The translations under genes and the position numbers were made by a program. From a virus (lineage: Duplodnaviria; Caudoviricetes), in IMG/VR virus record IMGVR_UViG_3300026549_000034, positions 1-64,000 of that record: a stretch of DNA of 64,000 nt. One strand, 5' to 3'. Positions 23,532-59,752 of this stretch are shown here, piece by piece. A model generated the notes under the pieces. The model had not been told where the DNA came from and ran no database searches. It saw only the letters and a program-made list of their open reading frames with translations. Positions within the stretch are counted from its first letter, which is position 1, and every line of letters begins with the position of its first letter.

Positions 23532-23642
23532 TTGTTAAATATTTGGCAGAGTTAGGCCTATTGCACTGCTCCCTACGAGTTAGGTAAAGTGGTATTTACA
23601 GTGGTAATTAATCAAGGGTTCAAATCCCTTAATATTTAACAA
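23532..23642 (+). ncRNA. tRNA-like RNA with 12 bp terminal stem and branched anticodon region
   Basis: Ser-type D arm, AAGGG-TTCAAAT-CCCTT T arm, no normal anticodon arm. Confidence 0.55.
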
Positions 23643-23836
23643 ACGATCTTTGACATATTGATACAATAATACATAAAAAAATATATAAATTACCTGTACT
23701 GGTCAACGATTCTAAGGTACAGAGGGGTACAGGTCATAAGTCATAAACTCTCAGAACGCTGTTGAAACATAACAGATGCGTCAAGTGCCAGCTACTGAGC
23801 AGTCGTAACGGGTTTATGAGATTTATTTTCAAATAT

Positions 23837-24062
23837 AAGTTTCCGAGGGCTGGAAGGAATTCCAATATTGAACCTCCAATGGGCATACTGAATTGACAGT
23901 TGAAAGACCTTGTAGTGGCAAACATGTGATTGAGGTCAGTGCGATACGTAAAGCAACGTAATGGAGACTGTGAAAGAGAAAAGCAGTGAGAATCTGCACT
24001 TTAGTAGAATCCCTTTAGTGGATTGAAGGAGTTAATTGCTCTATGACAGATGTAGGAAACTT
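23837..24062 (+). ncRNA. unknown structured RNA (about 225 nt)
   Basis: Closing stem AAGTTTCC/GGAAACTT, several internal hairpins, GC higher than flanks. Confidence 0.5.
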
Positions 24063-24157
24063 TTAAAATATTATACAGTCACTGGTTGTCGAGAAGACAA
24101 TTAGAATCAGATATCCCTCATAGATGTGTAGATGAACTGTTGAGGAGGGTAAAACAT

Positions 24158-24268
24158 AAGATGCTATGGTTGACCTGCATGACGAAAGGGCGGGTCCGAG
24201 GGTTCGAATCCCTCTCCTGAGGTATCTCGGGATGGCAGAGTGGTTGAATGCATGACCTAAGGTATCTT
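24158..24268 (+). ncRNA. circularly permuted tRNA mimic (YrlA-like topology)
   Basis: Order: variable arm, T arm, acceptor stem closed by GTAT loop, D arm; ends pair as extended anticodon-side stem. Confidence 0.75.
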
Positions 24269-24276
24269 TATTTTTT

Positions 24277-24365
24277 GGAGGTTTGGCAGAGTTGGTCGAT
24301 TGCACCGGTCTTGAAAATCGGCGGGCGTTCATAGCGTCCCGGGGGTTCGAATCCCTCAGCCTCCG
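24277..24365 (+). tRNA. tRNA-Ser(TGA)
   Basis: Class II cloverleaf, loop CTTGAAA, G73. Confidence 0.95.
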
Positions 24366-24370
24366 CATAT

Positions 24371-24448
24371 AAATTCATTGTTGTAGAATAGAGTTACTTC
24401 AATAATAGGGTTTTTATTTAATACTTTATTCGCTAGTTACATGAATTT
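24371..24448 (+). ncRNA. Y RNA-like module, minimal form
   Basis: AAATTCAT/ATGAATTT stem, TGTTGTA/GCTAGTTAC internal loop, GAATAGAGT/ACTTTATTC stem, TACTTC. Confidence 0.65.
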
Positions 24449-24455
24449 TTAATTT

Positions 24456-24540
24456 GGGCAGTTGGATGAGCGATTTAGTCGGCAGTCTGCAAAACTGTTA
24501 GTGGTGAGAACCCAGGCCGGTTTGACTCCGGCACTGCCCT
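24456..24540 (+). tRNA. tRNA-Cys(GCA) with long variable arm
   Basis: Loop CTGCAAA, U73, 17 nt variable region. Confidence 0.85.
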
Positions 24541-24561
24541 CAAAAAAATAAATAATAAATT

Positions 24562-26303: not shown

Positions 26304-26383
26304 TACCGATGTATACCCTCGCTCTCATAAGGCGCTGAAAGGTTAATTGGGTTACATAACAGTTCGATTCTGTTCGTCGGTAC
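26304..26383 (+). ncRNA. rearranged tRNA-like RNA with CAT anticodon hairpin
   Basis: Acceptor and T arms normal; CGCT-CTCATAA-GGCG hairpin with no preceding D arm. Confidence 0.55.
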
Positions 26384-26387
26384 ATAT

Positions 26388-26493
26388 GGAGGTTCACTTG
26401 CAATAATTATTAAGTCTTAAGAAGCTGTTGGGAAACTAATAATTATGAAGTAAAACAATAGGGATTCTGATAGTGATAAATGTACCTCCACCA
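26388..26493 (+). ncRNA. RNA with acceptor-like stem ending in ACCA but lacking T and D arms
   Basis: GGAGGT/ACCTCC-ACCA; internal ATAATTATTA/TAATAATTAT helix. Confidence 0.4.
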
Positions 26494-26499
26494 ATATAT

Positions 26500-26642
26500 A
26501 AATTCCTTGTTGTAAATAAGAGTTACTTCTTTCACCAATATTTCGAAAGGGTAGTTCAGTGGTCAGAACACCAGCATTGAAAACTGGAGGTCGTTGGTTC
26601 GAATCCAACTCTATAAACTTTTATTGAATGTTACAGGAATTT
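26500..26642 (+). ncRNA. Y RNA-like module enclosing a tRNA body (D, anticodon, T arms)
   Basis: Same outer module as 24371-24448; inside GTTC-AGTGGTCA-GAAC, CCAG..CTGG, GTTGG-TTCGAAT-CCAAC. Confidence 0.75.
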
Positions 26643-26652
26643 TATAATTTTT

Positions 26653-26725
26653 GCAGTATTGGTGTTAGTGATTAGCATAGGACACTTCCAATGTTCAGGG
26701 GACAGTTTGAATCTGTTATACTGCT
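26653..26725 (+). tRNA. tRNA-Gly(TCC)
   Basis: Loop CTTCCAA, U73. Confidence 0.88.
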
Positions 26726-26820
26726 CAGGGTCTAATTTAGTAGTAATCAAGACGCAAGGTGTATTCAAAGACTACACAGGAGATAACTACTCAAACCGGT
26801 AAGTAGAGGCCGGTATTTTT

Positions 26821-26895: not shown

Positions 26896-26898
26896 CTT

Positions 26899-27030
26899 AG
26901 CGCGGTGGTGAAATTCAATAAAACTTTTTTCGCTGTTGCTTCTTTATGAATGCTGTAGATAAGAGTTACTTCAGGTATACACACTTTATTTTGGTTAAAG
27001 ATTATGTTGGTTCGAGTCCAACCCGCGCTA
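26899..27030 (+). ncRNA. tRNA-Gln(TTG)-like RNA with a permuted Y RNA-like module (about 58 nt) in its D loop
   Basis: AGCGCGG/CCGCGCT acceptor, CTTTA-TTTTGGT-TAAAG anticodon arm, canonical T arm; insert 26916-26973. Confidence 0.75.
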
Positions 27031-27042
27031 CTATTTTTTAAT

Positions 27043-27776: not shown

Positions 27777-28805
27777 ATGCAATCTTTAGAAAGTTATATT
27801 GAACGGTTTAAGAATAATTATTACGAGCGTCATTATCAAATAGATTTAAATAATTTAGATTTATTTGATATGTTGATTTTAGATTCATGTATTAATTATT
27901 ATAAAGTAAACTATGATGAACATTATGAATTTGGACAATTATTTGAAAGTCATTCAGTATTTAATAAGTGCAGAGACATAACTAAATTCTTGACATTTGT
28001 GTTAACTAATTTTGATGTAAAGGAATCATCAATACTTTTTATGTGTAATAATATAGAAGAATTAAAAAATGATTACGTTATATCAATTAATATTAATTAT
28101 GAATCAAATATTGAAGATAATGCACAATATGACCAAACAATAGAAAAAAGCATAATAGATAATAAACTTGATTATATTGTTATAAATATTAATACAAACT
28201 TAGATAAAGACGAAATATATGATAAGATTGAACATGAATTAATTCATTCATTTGAAGATTATAATAGAATAATAAATGGAGCAGAATCTTTAAATGATAA
28301 AGCAATACAAGATAAATATTACAAATTATCATTAAGTGAAACCGATTCACAAGAATTACAAGATGTTAAAAATCTACTATACTTATTAGATAAATCTGAA
28401 CAAAATGCGTATATTGCTCAATTTGATGGAATTTTGGGTGATAATAAATATGTAACAATTCAACAAGCATATGAAAAGATATATAATTCCAAATTATATA
28501 AAGACATTAAATCATTTTCATATTTAGTTCTCAATAAAGATAAAGATACACAAGATTTATTATGTAATTTATACAGAAAAATATATGAGACAAATATAAT
28601 AAACAACAAAATTCTTAAAAAGATATATAAAGAATGGAATAGATTTTTTGAACATTTTAGAAGAAATATATATCAATGTATTTGTGACCATATTAAAGAT
28701 AATAGAAATATTTTAGATCGTGGAAGAACAATAAAAGATAATAGCAAATTAAAAGAAAAAATTGAAAACGAATATTTAAATAAATTTATTTTTATTGAAA
28801 AGTAA
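27777..28805 (+). CDS. putative zinc metallopeptidase-like protein (HExxH)
   Basis: HELIH...EQNAY; N-terminus MQSLESYIE. Confidence 0.55.
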   Translation: MQSLESYIERFKNNYYERHYQIDLNNLDLFDMLILDSCINYYKVNYDEHYEFGQLFESHSVFNKCRDITKFLTFVLTNFDVKESSILFMCNNIEELKNDYVISININYESNIEDNAQYDQTIEKSIIDNKLDYIVININTNLDKDEIYDKIEHELIHSFEDYNRIINGAESLNDKAIQDKYYKLSLSETDSQELQDVKNLLYLLDKSEQNAYIAQFDGILGDNKYVTIQQAYEKIYNSKLYKDIKSFSYLVLNKDKDTQDLLCNLYRKIYETNIINNKILKKIYKEWNRFFEHFRRNIYQCICDHIKDNRNILDRGRTIKDNSKLKEKIENEYLNKFIFIEK

Positions 28806-54517: not shown

Positions 54518-54721
54518 ATGAAACAAATTAGTATAAAGTGTAATCAATGTGAAAAGGTATTTCATTTTACAATTACTGAAGAACAATATAAACAATATAT
54601 TAGTGGCGAAGGACTAATTCAAAATATTTTTCCTGAAATTCAACCCGAATATAGAGAACTATTTATAAGTCAAATTTGTCCAGATTGTTGGAATAGGATT
54701 TTTAGTTATGCAGATGAATAA
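54518..54721 (+). CDS. small zinc-binding protein
   Basis: CNQC ... RELFIS.ICPDCW. Confidence 0.7.
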   Translation: MKQISIKCNQCEKVFHFTITEEQYKQYISGEGLIQNIFPEIQPEYRELFISQICPDCWNRIFSYADE

Positions 54722-55316
54722 GAATAAACAATTTATATATACAGAAAAGGACGCTGAAAATTTTTATTTTGTTAGTGATACTCATTTTTCTCATGAAAAC
54801 ATAATTAAATATTGTAAACGTCCTTTTGATTCAATAGAACAGCATGATAATGAATTAATTAAGCGATGGAATGAGAAAGTACCAGAAGATGGAATTGTAT
54901 TTCATCTGGGTGATGTTGCATTTGCTAATCGAGATAGAGTAGATAATATTCTTAAACAACTTAATGGAAAGATCTATTTAGTAATTGGAAATCATGATTG
55001 GAGAAGAATTGTGACCGATCATAGCTGGCGATTTGAATTGATGACACAACAAATTAATATGAAAATTGGAAAGCGTCATATAATTCTTAATCATTATCCT
55101 ATGCTTGCTTTTAGTGGAGCCTGGCGTGGTGAAGATGCAACTTATCAATTATTTGGTCATGTTCATACTTCTCCATATACTGATGAAGGTCTTGATACAC
55201 CAAGAATGAAAATGCTATTTGCTTCTCAATATGATGTCGGTGTAGATAATAATAATTTTACACCAGTATCTTGGAATGAAATAGATACAATTATTAAAAA
55301 TAGAATAAGTGAATAA
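54708..55316 (+). CDS. calcineurin-like metallophosphoesterase
   Basis: SDTHFSH, HLGD, GNHD, HYP, GHVH, DVGVD. Confidence 0.9.
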   Translation: MQMNKNKQFIYTEKDAENFYFVSDTHFSHENIIKYCKRPFDSIEQHDNELIKRWNEKVPEDGIVFHLGDVAFANRDRVDNILKQLNGKIYLVIGNHDWRRIVTDHSWRFELMTQQINMKIGKRHIILNHYPMLAFSGAWRGEDATYQLFGHVHTSPYTDEGLDTPRMKMLFASQYDVGVDNNNFTPVSWNEIDTIIKNRISE

Positions 55317-55758
55317 TAAATATACTAAAACAAATAATATGGATTATGTAGATTTGGGTTTGTCTGTTAAATGGGCAGATTGTAATGTAGGAGCAAATTC
55401 ACCTGAAGAGTTTGGAAGTTATTTTAATCGTGATGAATCAAAGAAAATCAAAGATATTACAATTCCAACGCTTGATCAGTGGCAAGAACTTCAGAGTAAT
55501 TGTACGTGTAAATTAAATAAAAATAAAAAAGGATGGACTATTACTGGTAAGAACGGCAATAAAATATATTTACCTATAGCTGGAGAAGGAAAGAATAATC
55601 CAAATGTAAAAGTGATGGGTGCATTTTTCTGGTCAAGCGATGATACTGAAGTAAATGGATTGCCTTTCACTTGGTATGCAGCATTTGATATGAAGGGTCG
55701 TAAAGATACACATTTGTTAGATCCTGAATATTGGATTTCTGTAAGAGGAGTACAATAA
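55309..55758 (+). CDS. VDLGL-domain protein (DUF1566/FISUMP-like, common in Prevotella)
   Basis: YVDLGLSVKWA.CNVGA...PT..W.EL...VRGV. Confidence 0.75.
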   Translation: MNNKYTKTNNMDYVDLGLSVKWADCNVGANSPEEFGSYFNRDESKKIKDITIPTLDQWQELQSNCTCKLNKNKKGWTITGKNGNKIYLPIAGEGKNNPNVKVMGAFFWSSDDTEVNGLPFTWYAAFDMKGRKDTHLLDPEYWISVRGVQ

Positions 55759-55840
55759 TTATGTAAATAATTATGTATTTTGCTTGTTTTAATTTCTGGA
55801 GTTTTTATACTATATTAAAATAAATCACAAATTAAAAAAT

Positions 55841-56083
55841 ATGAAAAAATGGTTTAAATTTTCAGTTTATAAAGATAAAGAAGAACAAAAATTTATCATT
55901 CATTGGTGGTGGAATGTTCCAAAGATTTCATTTGAAGGTGTTGAATATGCAAAGACAAAAAGACTACATCAATTAGTATTTTGTGGAAAAGATAATTTGT
56001 ATTGGGTATTTAGTAAGTCATATCCTGAGGGAAAATATAAATTCTTCAATAAGACAACTAATGATCATGTAAGTTGTGGCTAA
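55841..56083 (+). CDS. hypothetical protein
   Basis: 80 aa ORF after promoter motif. Confidence 0.6.
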   Translation: MKKWFKFSVYKDKEEQKFIIHWWWNVPKISFEGVEYAKTKRLHQLVFCGKDNLYWVFSKSYPEGKYKFFNKTTNDHVSCG

Positions 56084-56106
56084 CAAATATATAATAAAAA
56101 TTAATT

Positions 56107-56286
56107 ATGAGTAAACGTTTAACTTTAGGAAAAAAACCTTTATTACTTGGTGTTTGTTCAGGTTTTGCTGAATATTTTGATATAGATGTTACATTTATAA
56201 GATTTGTGTATTTAATTTTAGTATTCTGTTTTGGCGTAGGAATTCTACCATATTTTATTGCTTGGTTATTAATGCCTAAAAATTAA
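56107..56286 (+). CDS. pspC: PspC-domain membrane protein
   Basis: Manual ORF MSKRL...LGVCSGFAEYFDIDVTFIR...YFIAWLLMP. Confidence 0.88.
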   Translation: MSKRLTLGKKPLLLGVCSGFAEYFDIDVTFIRFVYLILVFCFGVGILPYFIAWLLMPKN

Positions 56287-56299
56287 AAATTTAAATATT

Positions 56300-56578
56300 A
56301 TGAAAAATAAGATAATTTATTGTATTTTTGCTCTTTGGTTTGTAGCTATAATAATTAATATTTATAGTTCATGTTATTCTATAAAAGGTTCAAATAATAC
56401 TGTTATAGAAAATAAATATAAATTTACAGATCATATTACTAGATCAGAAGTTACTGACTCATTAGGACATATGTATTATATATATGAAAATGAACAATAT
56501 GTTATGTTTAAACGTATATATTCCTTTTCTGTAGAACATAGAATGGATTGTAAAAAATGCTTAGATATATTTGATTAA
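56300..56578 (+). CDS. membrane-anchored hypothetical protein
   Basis: N-terminal TM, C-terminal H..DC..C. Confidence 0.6.
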   Translation: MKNKIIYCIFALWFVAIIINIYSSCYSIKGSNNTVIENKYKFTDHITRSEVTDSLGHMYYIYENEQYVMFKRIYSFSVEHRMDCKKCLDIFD

Positions 56579-56586
56579 CTTTTTAA

Positions 56587-57162
56587 ATGAAAATTATATT
56601 TCTTGATTTTGATGGAGTAATAACAATTCCTCCAAAATGGCATTTTGATAATGATAAGATCAAATATATTAAAAAAATAGTAGATGAAACAAATGCTAAA
56701 ATTGTTGTTTCATCTTCTTGGCGGAGGAAAACTATTAATGAAACCATTGAAAAAATTAAAAAATGGAATTATAAATATACTAAATCAAAATTATTTGATT
56801 GGTTTATCAATAATTTATATGATGTAACTCCTTGGATTTCTGATAATAAATATTCAGGAACAGGTAGAGGTGGAGAAATTCAAACTTGGTTAGATGATCA
56901 TCCTGATGTTGATAATTATGTTATTATAGATGATGATAGTGATATGTTAGATAGTCAATTATATCATTTTGTAGAAACTAATTATGAAGACGGTATTACT
57001 GAGGTTGAAGCACATAGGGCAATAAAAATACTAAATAAAGTTAAAATTATTAATCCTATGGCAATTAATTTTGAACTGCGATATCAATATTTATTAAAAA
57101 TTAATAAACTTCCAAATAAATATGATGAATTAAAAAAATATGATATGAATGATCATTATTAA
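56587..57162 (+). CDS. HAD phosphatase (Swiss Army Knife RNA-repair-type)
   Basis: FLDFDGV, VSSSWR, RG.EI..WL, YVIIDD. Confidence 0.85.
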   Translation: MKIIFLDFDGVITIPPKWHFDNDKIKYIKKIVDETNAKIVVSSSWRRKTINETIEKIKKWNYKYTKSKLFDWFINNLYDVTPWISDNKYSGTGRGGEIQTWLDDHPDVDNYVIIDDDSDMLDSQLYHFVETNYEDGITEVEAHRAIKILNKVKIINPMAINFELRYQYLLKINKLPNKYDELKKYDMNDHY

Positions 57163-57182
57163 ATATATAAAATTAAGAAATT

Positions 57183-57998
57183 ATGAATGGAATTATAGGA
57201 GCAATTGTTGGATCAAGTATAGGATTTTCTTATGAAATTAAGAAAACAAAAAATTATAACTTTAATATGATTTATGATAAGTCAAATGCAACAGATGATT
57301 CTGTAGCTATTATTGCCACTGCTGATTGGCTTATGACAACTAATCATACAAAAGATGAATATATTGATAAGCTACATTATTGGTGTAACAAATACAATTA
57401 TGGGATGTATAATTACGGAAATGCTACCAAATTTAAAGAATGGGTAAGAAATAAAGAAAGGACACCATATAATTCATTTGGTAATGGATCTGCTATGAGA
57501 GTAATTCCTGTAGGTTGGTATGCAAAAAGTATTGAAGAAGCTGAAAGACTTGCAAAAATAACTGCAGAAGTAACTCATAATCATCCTGAAGGCATTAAAG
57601 GTGCTCAAGCTGTTGCTGTTACTATTTGGATGATTCGCAATAATGCTTCTAAAAAAATTATTAAAAGGTATATTGAAGAATCTTATAATTATAATCTTAA
57701 TATATCATATGAAAAATTAAAAACACATCATATATTTGTATGTACTTGTCCTAATTCTGTTCCAGCATCATTAATTTGTTGGTTAAATAGTAATAGTTAT
57801 GAAGATTGTATAAGAAAAGCAGTAAGTCTTGGTGGTGATGCTGATACTGAAGCTGCAATTGCAGGAGCATTTGCTGCGGCTGATAGTAATACACCCGTTG
57901 ATGATAATTTAGTAAATGATCTAACTAGATTTTTTTCAATTGATTTTCTTGAAGTATTAAATAAGTTTCATAATAATATTGAATTAAAGAATGGATAA
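57183..57998 (+). CDS. ADP-ribosylglycohydrolase (DraG/ARH family)
   Basis: TDD, SFGNGSAMR, THNHPEG, GGDADT. Confidence 0.92.
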   Translation: MNGIIGAIVGSSIGFSYEIKKTKNYNFNMIYDKSNATDDSVAIIATADWLMTTNHTKDEYIDKLHYWCNKYNYGMYNYGNATKFKEWVRNKERTPYNSFGNGSAMRVIPVGWYAKSIEEAERLAKITAEVTHNHPEGIKGAQAVAVTIWMIRNNASKKIIKRYIEESYNYNLNISYEKLKTHHIFVCTCPNSVPASLICWLNSNSYEDCIRKAVSLGGDADTEAAIAGAFAAADSNTPVDDNLVNDLTRFFSIDFLEVLNKFHNNIELKNG

Positions 57999-58297: not shown

Positions 58298-59752
58298 ATG
58301 AGTAAACTTAATTCCACACGTAAGTCTTCTACATTGAAGACAAATCAAATAACTGTTGGTGAAATTGCTGGTCAGATAACAGATACTGCAGCAGCTCAGT
58401 CAAATATCGCTCTTCTTCGTAGAGCAGTTCTTGCAAATCTTCTTTGGGAGAATATTGCATACATGGATGGTGAGTCTGTCACAAATGAGATAAAGAGATT
58501 GATTTCTCTTTGTGATCCTCAAGATGTTGCAAATCTAACTATTGAAGCTCGTACTATGCAAAAGCTTCGTCATACTCCTCTTTTCCTTGCAGTAGAAATG
58601 TGTAAGCATGAAGCAACACGTCCTTATGTAAAGGATATACTTCCAAAGATTATCACACGTGCAGATATGCTTACTGACTTCATGGCTCTTTACTGGGCTG
58701 ACGGTAAGTGTCCTATTTGTAATGCAGCAAAGAAGGGTCTTGCTGAAGCATTCCATAACTTCAATGAGTACAAGTTTGCTAAGTATGACCGTAATGCAGA
58801 AATCAAGCTTCGCGACGTAATGTTCATGGTTCGTCCAAAGCCAGAAACTCCTCTTGAGGTTGAACTTTACAAGAAGATTGCTGATCGTACTCTTGAAACT
58901 CCTGAGACATGGGAGGTGCTTCTTTCACTTGCTCACACTAATGAAGAAAAGGCAGCCGTTTGGACAAAGCTTATTACTGAAGGTAAGCTTGGTGGTAAGG
59001 CTATGCTTATGAACATCCGTAATATGCAAAATGCAGGTGTTCCTCGTCCAATCATTGTACAAGGTCTTCAAGAACTTAAGGGAGCTATGCTTCTTCCACT
59101 TGATTTCTTGAAAGCTATGCGTGAAAGTAATGGCTTTGATAGAGAGATTGAAGATGCAATGCTTAAGACATATGAGAATATGCCTAAGCTTCCAGGTAAG
59201 ACTCTATTTATTGTGGATGTATCTGGATCTATGGGATCACTTACAAGCAGTGGTTCAACATTTACTAGACTTGACCAAGCATGTTCGATGGCAATGTTGG
59301 CAGCTAACCAATGTACTGACTTTGAACTTGTATGTACTGCCGGTTCTGATGGAGAGCTTCGTGAAGAGCAAATGAGAATTCTGTATCCTCCTAAGGGATT
59401 TAATCTCTTCAAAGAAATTGAAGCCTCCCGTAAAACTGTAGGAGGTGGTGGTATCTTCACATACCAGTGTCTTGAAAAGCTTCGTAAGGAGCTTGGTGAT
59501 AAGATACATGATTATGACAGAATCATTGTATTCAGTGATTCGCAGGATATAGATGTATCAAGTTGGCGTTCACCTAACCATGATAAGAAGCCACGTCCAT
59601 TTGGTAAGTACAATTATATCTGTGATATATCTGCTCATACTCGTGGTATTGCTTACAATGGTGTTTGGACAGCTGAAATTTCGGGTTGGTCAGAACACTT
59701 CCTTACATATATTGCAGCATATGAAGGAATTGAAAATACATTTGATGAATAA
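58298..59752 (+). CDS. Ro60/TROVE-domain RNA-binding protein (Rsr-like) with vWA domain
   Basis: LR..P, ITRAD, F.EY..AKY, LRDV.F..RPKP, TWE..LS, DVSGSM MIDAS, FSD.Q, SGWSE. Confidence 0.93.
   Translation: MSKLNSTRKSSTLKTNQITVGEIAGQITDTAAAQSNIALLRRAVLANLLWENIAYMDGESVTNEIKRLISLCDPQDVANLTIEARTMQKLRHTPLFLAVEMCKHEATRPYVKDILPKIITRADMLTDFMALYWADGKCPICNAAKKGLAEAFHNFNEYKFAKYDRNAEIKLRDVMFMVRPKPETPLEVELYKKIADRTLETPETWEVLLSLAHTNEEKAAVWTKLITEGKLGGKAMLMNIRNMQNAGVPRPIIVQGLQELKGAMLLPLDFLKAMRESNGFDREIEDAMLKTYENMPKLPGKTLFIVDVSGSMGSLTSSGSTFTRLDQACSMAMLAANQCTDFELVCTAGSDGELREEQMRILYPPKGFNLFKEIEASRKTVGGGGIFTYQCLEKLRKELGDKIHDYDRIIVFSDSQDIDVSSWRSPNHDKKPRPFGKYNYICDISAHTRGIAYNGVWTAEISGWSEHFLTYIAAYEGIENTFDE

What the first reader, a model, noticed from the sequence alone, without database searches (positions are those of the whole stretch)
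26500..26642. Y-like RNA enclosing a non-permuted tRNA body
Outer stems AAATTCCT/AGGAATTT and AATAAGAGTT/AACTTTTATT with the TGTTGTA/GAATGTTAC loop replace the acceptor stem. Inside are D arm, anticodon arm (ATTGAAA loop, UGA) and T arm in normal order. YrlA places the Ro stem at the anticodon side, whereas this RNA places it at the acceptor side and exposes an anticodon loop. That geometry would suit an unchargeable decoy for anticodon nucleases (inference).
Basis: partly seen in the sequence, partly recalled or inferred. Interest (0 to 1): 0.82.

Follow-up and report, generated by a model that had tools for sequence, protein, structure and literature searches.

The report
Phage Y RNA carrying whole tRNA mimic
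This giant rumen phage encodes a small RNA in which a conserved hairpin "handle", probably the docking site for the phage's own Ro60 ring protein, carries a complete tRNA look-alike with an exposed anticodon arm; the design recurs in other phages and extends the known tRNA-mimicking Y RNAs of bacteria.

Summary
One detail is wrong: the acceptor stem is present. CUUUC (26529-26533) pairs with GAAAG (26545-26549), and GG pairs with UC. This gives a 7-bp acceptor closed by a loop that begins ACCA. The chain leaves through the 3' strand between positions 67 and 68.

The outer stem-bulge-stem "handle" is a conserved RNA module.
- On 11 plain hairpins, 96% of cells pair and 13 of 17 pairs show double changes.
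- It lies directly beside TROVE/Ro60 genes in crAss001, cr106_1, cr112_1 and Xanthomonas phage Tenjo. A weaker match lies beside the gene in CcrColossus.
- This genome encodes a Ro60 homologue (58298-59752, 63% identical to crAss001's) and RtcB.

The closed-acceptor, full-tRNA cargo recurs in 11 other loci. One lies 366 nt upstream of the TROVE gene of Rhizobium phage RHph_TM30. Seven distinct acceptor helices covary, and 11 of 12 loops carry CCA.

Best reading: a Ro60-partner Y RNA of a new topology, closest to YrlA and Yrn1. The anticodon-nuclease decoy idea is untested, and some relatives have tetraloops in place of the anticodon loop.

Earlier notes of this scan describe the handle family and a look-alike of this design on other DNA.

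The parts
26500..26507 (+). Handle helix P1, 5' strand (AAATTCCT)
   Evidence: Pairs 8/8 with 26635-26642. All 8 P1 pairs show double-sided changes across 11 plain hairpins.
26508..26514 (+). Handle bulge, 5' side (UGUUGUA), carrying the YGWA motif
   Evidence: Conserved as UGUUGUA, UGGUGUA or UAGUGUA in relatives. It reads UGGCGUA in CcrColossus and UUGCGAA in RHph_TM30. This grades into the published CGAA/GNCGAA Ro60-binding motif (PMC4201824, PMC12135203).
26515..26523 (+). Handle helix P2, 5' strand (AATAAGAGT)
   Evidence: Pairs 9/9 with 26617-26625, including a conserved G-U. Five of 9 pairs show double changes.
26524..26528 (+). Linker UACUU, part of the invariant UACUUC motif
   Evidence: UACUUC is invariant in the alignment of 12 cargo-bearing members. 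It is also present in Tenjo and CcrColossus.
26529..26533 (+). Acceptor 3' strand, positions 68-72 (CUUUC), placed upstream of position 1
   Evidence: Pairs with GAAAG 26545-26549. Compensatory variants in relatives are CUUCC/GGAAG, AAUCC/GGAUU, AAGCC/GGCUU and CGCUU/AAGCG.
26534..26544 (+). Loop closing the acceptor stem (ACCAAUAUUUC); it starts with a discriminator base plus CCA
   Evidence: CCA lies within the first 4 nt of this loop in 11 of 12 members. Only 1 of 18 tRNA genes in this window encodes CCA.
26545..26551 (+). Acceptor 5' strand, positions 1-7 (GAAAGGG)
   Evidence: Positions 1-5 pair with 26529-26533. Positions 6-7 pair with UC at 26610-26611.
26552..26570 (+). U8 A9, the D arm (GUUC AGUGGUCA GAAC) and A26
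   Evidence: Matches Rfam tRNA model positions 6-65. A14, G15, G18, G19 and A21 are present. The D stem covaries across members.
26571..26587 (+). Anticodon arm: CCAGC AUUGAAA ACUGG, anticodon UGA, C31-A39 mismatch
   Evidence: L057 and L122 have the same stem with loops CUUGAAA and GUUGAAA. Other members carry GCA, ACA, a UUU-like loop, or a tetraloop.
26588..26609 (+). Variable loop AGGUC and T arm GUUGG UUCGAAU CCAAC
   Evidence: The G15-C48, G53-C61, U54-U55-C56 and A58 positions are all canonical.
26610..26616 (+). Acceptor positions 66-67 (UC), then linker UAUAA back to the handle
   Evidence: The exit point varies between 66/67, 67/68 and 68/69 among members while the acceptor total stays at 7 bp.
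26617..26642 (+). Handle 3' half: P2 3' strand ACUUUUAUU, bulge GAAUGUUAC, P1 3' strand AGGAAUUU
24371..24448 (+). Second copy of the handle without cargo (plain hairpin), between tRNA-Ser(UGA) and tRNA-Cys(GCA)
   Evidence: 88% identical over the 5' half. R1 scores 83 bits. P1 shows a C-G to A-U compensatory change relative to element A.
26898..27032 (+). Third handle RNA: a tRNA-shaped RNA with a permuted copy of the handle inside it (subject of another report of this scan)
58298..59752 (+). Ro60 homologue (TROVE + vWA, 484 aa), the presumed protein partner
   Evidence: Pfam TROVE E 8e-17 plus VWA_2. 63% identical to crAss001 gp96. Best PDB matches are 9KOP and 9L5Y, the Thermus phage phiLo Ro60.

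Best explanation
Element A is a phage Y RNA, meaning a partner RNA of the phage-encoded Ro60 ring protein.

Structure. The 5' and 3' ends form a stem-bulge-stem handle (P1, a bulge carrying the UGUA motif, P2, then UACUUC). This is inferred to be the Ro60 docking site. The handle carries a complete tRNA mimic: a 7-bp acceptor stem closed by a loop that encodes ACCA, a D arm, a free anticodon arm (UGA) and a T arm. The handle joins the tRNA through the 3' strand of the acceptor stem, between positions 67 and 68.

Biogenesis (inferred). The RNA is most likely transcribed with the tRNA array and released when its tRNA neighbours are processed. By analogy with M. smegmatis YrlA, RNase P may cut before G1 (26545). 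Trimming back to the encoded CCA would then give a two-piece RNA held together by the handle.

Function (inferred). Like other Y RNAs, it would tether Ro60 to, or gate it for, a tRNA-recognising factor. Candidates are PNPase, RtcB-type repair enzymes or a host tRNA nuclease, in the contest over tRNAs during infection.

Shown versus inferred. Shown here: the structure, its conservation, and the genomic link of the handle to Ro60 genes. Inferred: Ro60 binding, the processing steps and the effector.
For: Handle structure: on 11 plain hairpins, 96.3% of cells pair and 13 of 17 pairs have double-sided changes. Registers slid by 1-3 columns give 41-50% pairing, and 0 of 500 shuffles reach the observed value.

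Handle sits beside TROVE genes on the same strand:
- crAss001 and cr106_1.
- cr112_1, with three copies.
- Xanthomonas phage Tenjo, 30.6 bits, with entirely different helix sequences.
- Caulobacter phage CcrColossus, 21.6 bits.

Ro60 in the genomes: the window's own genome has a TROVE+vWA gene 63% identical to crAss001's. All 3 handle-bearing records that are at least 90% complete have a Ro60 homologue.

The cargo design recurs in 11 other loci: 10 viral-contig loci and RHph_TM30. Seven distinct acceptor helices are 98% paired, with 2-4 pair types at every position. Shuffled partners give 57%, and 0 of 2000 shuffles reach the observed value. One member lies 366 nt upstream of the TROVE CDS of cultured Rhizobium phage RHph_TM30.

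CCA opens the acceptor loop in 11 of 12 members, against 1 of 18 ordinary tRNA genes in this window.

Published precedents:
- Thermus phage phiLo Ro60 binds stem-bulge-stem Yrl RNAs through a CGAA bulge motif and forms a complex with host PNPase (PMC12135203).
- M. smegmatis YrlA, which has a closed 7-bp acceptor, is cut by RNase P and receives CCA in vivo (PMC4201824).

Repair context: RtcB is encoded in the genome, and an RNA-repair-type HAD domain gene lies next to the Ro60 gene.
Against: - No binding, expression or processing data exist for this RNA.
- In this genome the RNA lies 31.7 kb from the Ro60 gene, not within the 4 kb typical of YrlA.
- The bulge motif is UGUA, not the published CGAA. 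In phiLo, single substitutions in CGAA cost 3-4 fold in affinity (PMC12135203).
- Rfam's YrlA model (RF02553) gives no match even at E <= 10.
- Nine handle-bearing records show no Ro60 gene, but all are 14-83% complete.
- The proposed cloverleaf scores -22.6 kcal/mol against an MFE of -31.0 kcal/mol, so thermodynamics alone does not favour it.
Confidence: 0.78

Rival explanations
1. Anticodon-nuclease decoy. The exposed UGA anticodon arm sits on a class-I body that seryl-tRNA synthetase should not charge. It would soak up or inhibit a host tRNA-Ser(UGA)-directed nuclease, possibly presenting it to Ro60/PNPase or handing cut ends to RtcB. This is compatible with the best explanation, as one specific effector hypothesis within it.
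For: - The loop has the shape of a tRNA-Ser(UGA) anticodon loop. L057 has CUUGAAA, identical to the phage's own tRNA-Ser(UGA) loop.
- A second subgroup carries a canonical tRNA-Cys loop, CUGCAAA.
- No long variable arm is present.
- RtcB and an RNA-repair HAD domain are encoded in the genome.
- Hughes et al. 2020 proposed competitive inhibition of an anticodon nuclease for YrlA (PMC7790460).
Against: - Members L104 and L163 have GNRA tetraloops in place of the anticodon loop. L094 has an 8-nt loop, and RHph_TM30 has an irregular 20-nt arm.
- The UGA subgroup keeps a C31-A39 mismatch that a faithful mimic would not need.
- No nuclease that targets tRNA-Ser(UGA) or tRNA-Cys is known for the unidentified host.
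Confidence: 0.2
2. Permuted tRNA gene. The handle would be an excision signal: an endonuclease removes it, a ligase such as the phage RtcB joins positions 67 and 68, and RNase P plus 3' trimming open the acceptor loop. The product would be a normal 76-nt tRNA with an encoded CCA end.
For: - All tRNA parts are present, and the loop encodes discriminator plus CCA.
- RtcB is encoded in the genome.
- Permuted tRNA genes processed through circular intermediates are known in algae (established knowledge, not tested here).
Against: - The same handle occurs without any tRNA cargo, next to Ro60 genes.
- It also occurs with YrlA-order cargo that cannot give a tRNA.
- No splicing endonuclease (PF01974) was found in the 68% of the genome held.
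- No bulge-helix-bulge motif lies at the junction.
- Anticodon and body do not match any synthetase's rules: UGA sits on a class-I body, and the Cys-type members have G/A73 rather than U73 (identity rules are from established knowledge).
- Some members have tetraloops in place of the anticodon loop.
Confidence: 0.06
3. A processing or stability hairpin of the tRNA operon (for example an RNase III or RNase E site, or a spacer) that happens to hold a decaying tRNA pseudogene, with no link to Ro60.
For: - Both copies lie between tRNA genes on the tRNA strand.
- Two 8-9 bp helices around an internal loop resemble phage RNase III sites (established knowledge).
Against: - The handle is found beside TROVE genes in phages where no tRNA array surrounds it, such as Tenjo.
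- The bulge and UACUUC sequences are conserved across very distant phages while the helices covary.
- The cargo keeps every tRNA tertiary-contact nucleotide and a covarying 7-bp acceptor in at least 7 lineages. A pseudogene would not.
Confidence: 0.05
4. CRISPR repeat mimic (RNA anti-CRISPR). The 5' part (AAUUC-UUGUUGUA) resembles the Cas12a repeat handle AAUUUCUACUGUUGUAGAU.
For: Sequence resemblance recalled from memory only. Relatives read AAUUUCAUUUGUUGUAGA.
Against: - The Cas12a repeat hairpin (UCUAC/GUAGA) cannot form here.
- The AAUUC segment instead pairs with a partner about 130 nt downstream, with covariation.
Confidence: 0.01

Closest known systems
YrlA, the tRNA-mimicking bacterial and mycobacteriophage Y RNA (Rfam RF02553; Chen et al. 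2014, PMC4201824; structure preprint 10.1101/312249)
   Same: The 5' and 3' ends form the presumed Ro60-binding stem. The cargo has tRNA-like D and T arms with the tertiary-contact nucleotides. The acceptor stem is closed by a loop. M. smegmatis YrlA has a 7-bp acceptor that RNase P cuts and that then gets CCA. The RNA travels with a Ro60 gene and often with RtcB.
   Different: In YrlA the order is Ro stem, V, T, acceptor loop, D, and the Ro stem replaces the anticodon arm. Here the order is acceptor 68-72, loop, 1-7, D, anticodon arm, V, T, 66-67, and the stem leaves through the acceptor's 3' strand, so a full anticodon arm is displayed. CCA is encoded in the loop. The bulge motif is UGUA, not GNCGAA. 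The Rfam model does not match. The RNA is 31.7 kb from the Ro60 gene in this genome.
Deinococcus radiodurans Yrn1 (Chen et al. 2014, PMC4201824, Fig. 2E as described in the text)
   Same: The paper states that the T and D arms face the opposite way to YrlA relative to the 5' end, and that the stem-loop between them occupies the anticodon-arm position. This implies that the Ro stem takes the acceptor side.
   Different: Yrn1 has only a partial D arm, a 6-nt 'anticodon' loop, no variable arm and no closed acceptor stem with CCA.
Yrl1/Yrl2 of Thermus phage phiLo bound by phage Ro60 (PMC12135203; PDB 9KOP, 9L5Y)
   Same: A phage-encoded Ro60 with stem-bulge-stem partner RNAs. A 4-nt motif on the 5' side of the bulge contributes to binding. 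That protein is the closest solved relative of this window's Ro60 (E 8e-10).
   Different: The phiLo RNAs are simple hairpins carrying CGAA, and no tRNA-like cargo is mentioned. Here the motif is UGUA and the cargo is a complete tRNA mimic.
Circularly permuted tRNA genes of red and green algae (established knowledge)
   Same: The 3' acceptor piece plus CCA lies upstream of position 1, joined by an intervening loop.
   Different: Those genes are cut at a bulge-helix-bulge motif and ligated to give working tRNAs. Here no such motif or endonuclease was found, and the flanking helix is a Ro60-type handle that is also used without any tRNA.

Membership tests
Y RNA (partner RNA of Ro60/Rsr) | Physically bound by Ro60 | not testable with these tools
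   Needs RIP or EMSA. Only genomic association is shown here.
Y RNA (partner RNA of Ro60/Rsr) | 5' and 3' ends pair into a stem-bulge-stem | tested here: met
   P1 is 8 bp and P2 is 9 bp around a 7/9-nt internal loop. Covariation is shown, and R1 matches the element.
Y RNA (partner RNA of Ro60/Rsr) | Conserved Ro-binding motif on the 5' strand of the bulge (GGUCCGA, GNCGAAN0-1G or CGAA) | tested here: inconclusive
   The element has G-U-U-G-U-A. Relatives grade from UGUA and UGAA through CGUA (CcrColossus) to CGAA (RHph_TM30) at the same position. The literal published motif is absent.
Y RNA (partner RNA of Ro60/Rsr) | Ro60 gene in the same genome | tested here: met
   TROVE+vWA ORF at 58298-59752. 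Three of 3 near-complete handle-bearing records also have one.
Y RNA (partner RNA of Ro60/Rsr) | Encoded within about 4 kb of the Ro60 gene on the same strand (criterion of Chen et al. 2014) | tested here: not met
   Same strand, but 31.7 kb away, inside the tRNA array. The criterion is met by homologous handles in crAss001, cr106_1, cr112_1, Tenjo and CcrColossus. It is also met by the same cargo design in RHph_TM30.
YrlA (RF02553) | Match to the Rfam covariance model | tested here: not met
   No RF02553 match at E <= 10 in 26350-26800, nor on the RHph_TM30 locus.
YrlA (RF02553) | Module order Ro stem, V, T arm, closed acceptor, D arm, with the Ro stem in place of the anticodon arm | tested here: not met
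   The order here is acceptor 3' piece, loop, acceptor 5', D, anticodon arm, V, T. True YrlA-order cargos on the same handle exist in related loci.
YrlA (RF02553) | tRNA-like D and T arms with tertiary-contact nucleotides, and an acceptor stem closed by a loop | tested here: met
   U8, A14, G15-C48, G18, G19, A21, G53-C61, U54-U55-C56 and A58 are all present. The closed 7-bp acceptor is supported by covariation.
Functional tRNA gene | Free 5' and 3' ends at a 7-bp acceptor stem as encoded | tested here: not met
   The acceptor is closed by an 11-nt loop, and the chain is interrupted at 67/68 by the handle. The Rfam tRNA match covers model positions 6-65 only.
Functional tRNA gene | Anticodon and body consistent with one amino-acid identity | tested here: not met
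   The UGA (Ser) anticodon sits on a body with a 5-nt variable loop. The phage's real tRNA-Ser(UGA) at 24277-24366 is 90 nt with a long arm. The rule that SerRS needs the long arm is established knowledge.
Permuted tRNA gene (algal type) | Bulge-helix-bulge junction and a splicing endonuclease | tested here: not met
   No PF01974 match in the held genome. The junction is flanked by 5-nt linkers and the handle, not by a 3-4-3 bulge-helix-bulge.

The most novel reading that the evidence does not exclude
The RNA is opened by RNase P in its acceptor loop and trimmed to the encoded CCA. This would give a two-piece, CCA-ended, full-length tRNA that stays bolted to Ro60 through the handle. The Ro60-tethered pseudo-tRNA would then act as bait for a host tRNA-directed defence, such as an anticodon nuclease or another tRNA-Ser(UGA)/tRNA-Cys-specific effector. 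It would either inhibit that effector or deliver it, or the cut RNA ends, to PNPase or the phage RtcB. If so, phage Y RNAs would form a programmable counter-defence family whose cargo names the tRNA under attack.
Probability: 0.15. Interest if true: 0.85.

Novelty: new variant of a known kind. Interest (0 to 1): 0.6.

Why it matters
Bacterial Y RNAs are known to mimic tRNA, but what the mimic is for remains an open question. In the published cases the anticodon arm is missing.

This element shows that phages build the same Ro60 handle onto a complete tRNA shape, with a displayed anticodon arm and an encoded CCA. Related phages use the same handle with no cargo, with YrlA-type cargo, with whole tRNAs, and inside tRNAs. 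That modularity points to the cargo as the part that selects the target.

It also gives culturable systems in which Ro60 binding, RNase P opening and any role in tRNA conflicts can be tested directly. Rhizobium phage RHph_TM30 carries this design. Bacteroides phage crAss001 carries the plain-hairpin handle and the form with the handle inside a tRNA-shaped RNA.

I found no paper or Rfam family describing this handle family or this topology in the searches I could run.

Tried and rejected
- An exact 60-nt search for the tRNA body in viral contigs found nothing.
- A search for relatives of the in-array ORF 27777-28805 found none.
- My first pattern for the handle had the wrong length and missed both real copies.
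- Single-sequence folding is uninformative: z = -1.5 for the whole element and -0.2 for the cargo. The proposed fold is 8 kcal/mol above the MFE.
- MAFFT misaligns the acceptor hairpins of distant members. I therefore parsed the 11 members by hand-set segment lengths in a script and ran the shuffle control there. That parse is fitted to the proposed structure.
- The Cas12a-repeat resemblance was rejected because the repeat hairpin cannot form.
- The RNase III-site and pseudogene readings were rejected on conservation.
- The permuted-tRNA-gene reading is kept only as a minor rival.
- PF09511 (T4 Rnl1) gave no match, but its control rang nowhere, so that search is uninformative.
- The promoter/terminator scan showed nothing specific around the element.
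- The 2020 Annual Review on bacterial Ro60 (PMC10870794) and the supplements of Chen et al. 2014 are not held. I therefore could not check their phage lists.

Full report
**What is there**

The window is the first 64 kb of a 193-kb, 26% GC virus record. It carries a tRNA array at 23.4-31.4 kb on the + strand.

- P1: AAATTCCT / AGGAATTT.
- An asymmetric bulge: TGTTGTA / GAATGTTAC.
- P2: AATAAGAGT / ACTTTTATT.
- A tRNA body inside.

Rfam's tRNA model matches this body over positions 6-65 only (45.6 bits). ARAGORN forces it into a 72-nt 'tRNA-Ser(tga)' with four acceptor pairs. Thermodynamic folding of the single sequence is not significant (z = -1.5). The case therefore rests on comparison with other sequences.

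**The outer helices are a conserved module**

The 5' half recurs at 24367-24400. That copy (24371-24448) is a plain hairpin between tRNA-Ser(UGA) and tRNA-Cys(GCA). It has the same bulge sequences and a compensatory C-G to A-U change in P1.

A pattern taken from the bulge and P2 found the same hairpin between tRNA genes in other large viral contigs. On 11 plain hairpins:
- 96.3% of cells pair.
- 13 of 17 pairs show changes on both sides.
- Registers slid by 1-3 columns pair at 41-50%.
- No shuffle out of 500 reaches the observed values.

A covariance model built from these hairpins (R1) finds element A at 38.2 bits, E 3e-5, although A was not in the training set. It also finds many further copies in related loci, up to seven per locus.

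**The module travels with Ro60**

A blastn search with the plain copy hit an unannotated spot in Bacteroides phage crAss001 and in cr106_1. In both phages that spot lies directly downstream of a TROVE-domain gene. Two plain handle hairpins follow the gene in each, and two tRNA-shaped RNAs containing a permuted handle follow in crAss001.

Further cases:
- cr112_1 has three handle hairpins after its TROVE gene.
- Xanthomonas phage Tenjo, whose Ro60 is about 34% identical, has one in the gap upstream of the gene (30.6 bits). Its helices have completely different, GC-rich sequences, but it keeps the motifs UGGUGUA ... UACUUC ... GUUUGUUCC.
- Caulobacter phage CcrColossus has a weaker match (21.6 bits, E 0.013-0.04 depending on the search) with UGGCGUA.

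The window's own genome encodes a TROVE+vWA protein at 58298-59752. It is 63% identical to crAss001 gp96. Its closest solved relative is the Ro60 of Thermus phage phiLo.

Of the handle-bearing viral records I could search, all three that are at least 90% complete have a Ro60 homologue. The nine without one are 14-83% complete.

The published phiLo work shows that a phage Ro60 binds stem-bulge-stem RNAs through a CGAA motif in the bulge and assembles with host PNPase (PMC12135203). At the same place, this family reads UGUA or UGAA. CGUA (CcrColossus) and CGAA (RHph_TM30) occur as intermediates. I read the handle as a divergent Ro60 docking site. That step is inference.

**The cargo is a complete tRNA, not an acceptor-less one**

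This prompted me to re-read the hairpin in front of the D arm:
- CUUUC (26529-26533) pairs with GAAAG (26545-26549). These are acceptor pairs 1-5 with 68-72.
- G6 and G7 pair with U66 and C67 (26610-11).
- The closing loop starts with ACCA.

A second pattern search recovered ten more RNAs of this build. An eleventh lies in Rhizobium phage RHph_TM30. I parsed the ten plus element A segment by segment and RHph_TM30 separately.

Findings across these RNAs:
- The acceptor total is 7 bp in all but one member (L162, with 5 paired of 6 positions).
- The exit point moves between 66/67, 67/68 and 68/69.
- There are seven distinct acceptor helices, for example GAAAG/CUUUC, GGAAG/CUUCC, GGAUU/AAUCC, GGCUU/AAGCC and AAGCG/CGCUU.
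- They are 98% paired, with 2-4 pair types at every position. Shuffled partners give 57%, and 0 of 2000 shuffles reach the observed value.
- CCA opens the loop in 11 of 12 members, whereas only 1 of 18 ordinary tRNA genes in this window encodes CCA.
- D, anticodon and T stems also covary.
- Element A has all the usual tertiary-contact nucleotides.

The RHph_TM30 copy sits 366 nt upstream of the TROVE CDS on the same strand. This ties this particular cargo design to Ro60 by adjacency.

**How it compares with what is known**

In YrlA the order is Ro stem, V, T, closed acceptor, D, and the Ro stem stands where the anticodon arm would be (PMC4201824, sections 5-6; preprint 10.1101/312249). Element A keeps the closed acceptor but adds a full anticodon arm and moves the junction to the acceptor's 3' strand.

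The acceptor-side orientation has a partial precedent in D. radiodurans Yrn1, which the same paper models with an 'anticodon arm' between a partial D arm and the T arm.

M. smegmatis YrlA, the one YrlA with a 7-bp acceptor, is cut by RNase P and receives CCA in vivo (PMC4201824, section 8). With a 7-bp acceptor and an encoded CCA, element A looks built for the same treatment. This is inference.

Rfam's YrlA model does not match element A or the RHph_TM30 RNAs.

Related loci show the same handle with five kinds of cargo:
- No cargo.
- YrlA-order cargo.
- Closed-acceptor full tRNAs, as in element A.
- Open-acceptor full tRNAs joined by linkers.
- The handle placed inside a tRNA.

**Function**

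The genome also encodes RtcB. The Ro60 gene is flanked by an RNA-repair-type HAD domain gene and an ADP-ribosylglycohydrolase gene. This resembles the rsr-yrlBA-rtcBA repair operon in composition.

The anticodon loops fall into groups:
- UGA loops: window A, L057 and L122, all with a conserved C31-A39 mismatch.
- Canonical Cys-type GCA/ACA loops: L068, L098, L127, L162.
- A UUU-like loop: L139.
- An 8-nt loop: L094.
- GNRA tetraloops: L104, L163.
- An irregular arm: RHph_TM30.

The decoy idea has a published parallel (PMC7790460). It is attractive for the UGA and Cys groups, but it cannot be the function of the whole class and nothing here tests it.

**Rivals**

- A permuted tRNA gene is unlikely because the handle also occurs with no cargo or with non-tRNA cargo, no splicing endonuclease was found, and anticodon and body do not match.
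- A processing hairpin holding a pseudogene is contradicted by the conservation of the cargo.
- A Cas12a-repeat mimic is excluded by the covarying long-range pairing.

**Verdict**

This is a real, conserved RNA. Most likely it is a Ro60-partner Y RNA of a topology not described in the papers or Rfam release I could search. It is a new variant of a known kind.

Earlier notes of this scan report the handle family many times on other DNA, and one of them describes a look-alike of this very design.

Noticed in passing
window 24456-24541: The 'tRNA-Cys(GCA)' next to the plain handle is 86 nt long with a long extra arm. Its best Rfam model is tRNA-Sec (43.4 bits, just under the 47-bit gathering score), so it has a Sec-like body with a Cys anticodon.
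   Followed up: no
window 23640-24215: About 570 nt of GC-richer non-coding sequence ends in a T arm and an acceptor-like 3' end. There is a weak tmRNA match at 24165-24215 (E 6e-4). A genuine tmRNA (132.9 bits) sits among handle RNAs in related locus L094 4149-4504.
   Followed up: partly
window 26386-26493: Directly upstream of element A, GGAGGU pairs with ACCUCC followed by ACCA. This encloses about 90 nt that are not tRNA-like. It is an unidentified RNA with a tRNA-style end.
   Followed up: partly
window 23537-23638: A 102-nt tRNA-model match (34.8 bits) with a large insert and a 12-bp terminal helix (TTGTTAAATATT/AATATTTAACAA). ARAGORN does not call it.
   Followed up: no
window 54708-57998 and genome 157165-158364: The Ro60 gene is preceded by a metallophosphoesterase gene, a HAD_SAK_2 (RNA-repair 'Swiss army knife' HAD) gene and an ADP-ribosylglycohydrolase gene. 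RtcB is encoded about 98 kb further on.
   Followed up: partly
L162 348-490; L130 1059-1210: In other phages the same handle encloses a whole ordinary tRNA whose 7-bp acceptor ends are joined to P2 by single-stranded linkers. Examples are a UCC anticodon in L162 and CCU in L130. Normal RNase P/Z processing would cut such an RNA out of its handle.
   Followed up: partly
window 24371-24448 versus the anticodons of relatives: The plain handle lies exactly between tRNA-Ser(UGA) and tRNA-Cys(GCA). These are the two anticodons that the full-tRNA cargos of this phage group display. This may be coincidence, or a trace of how the cargos arose.
   Followed up: no
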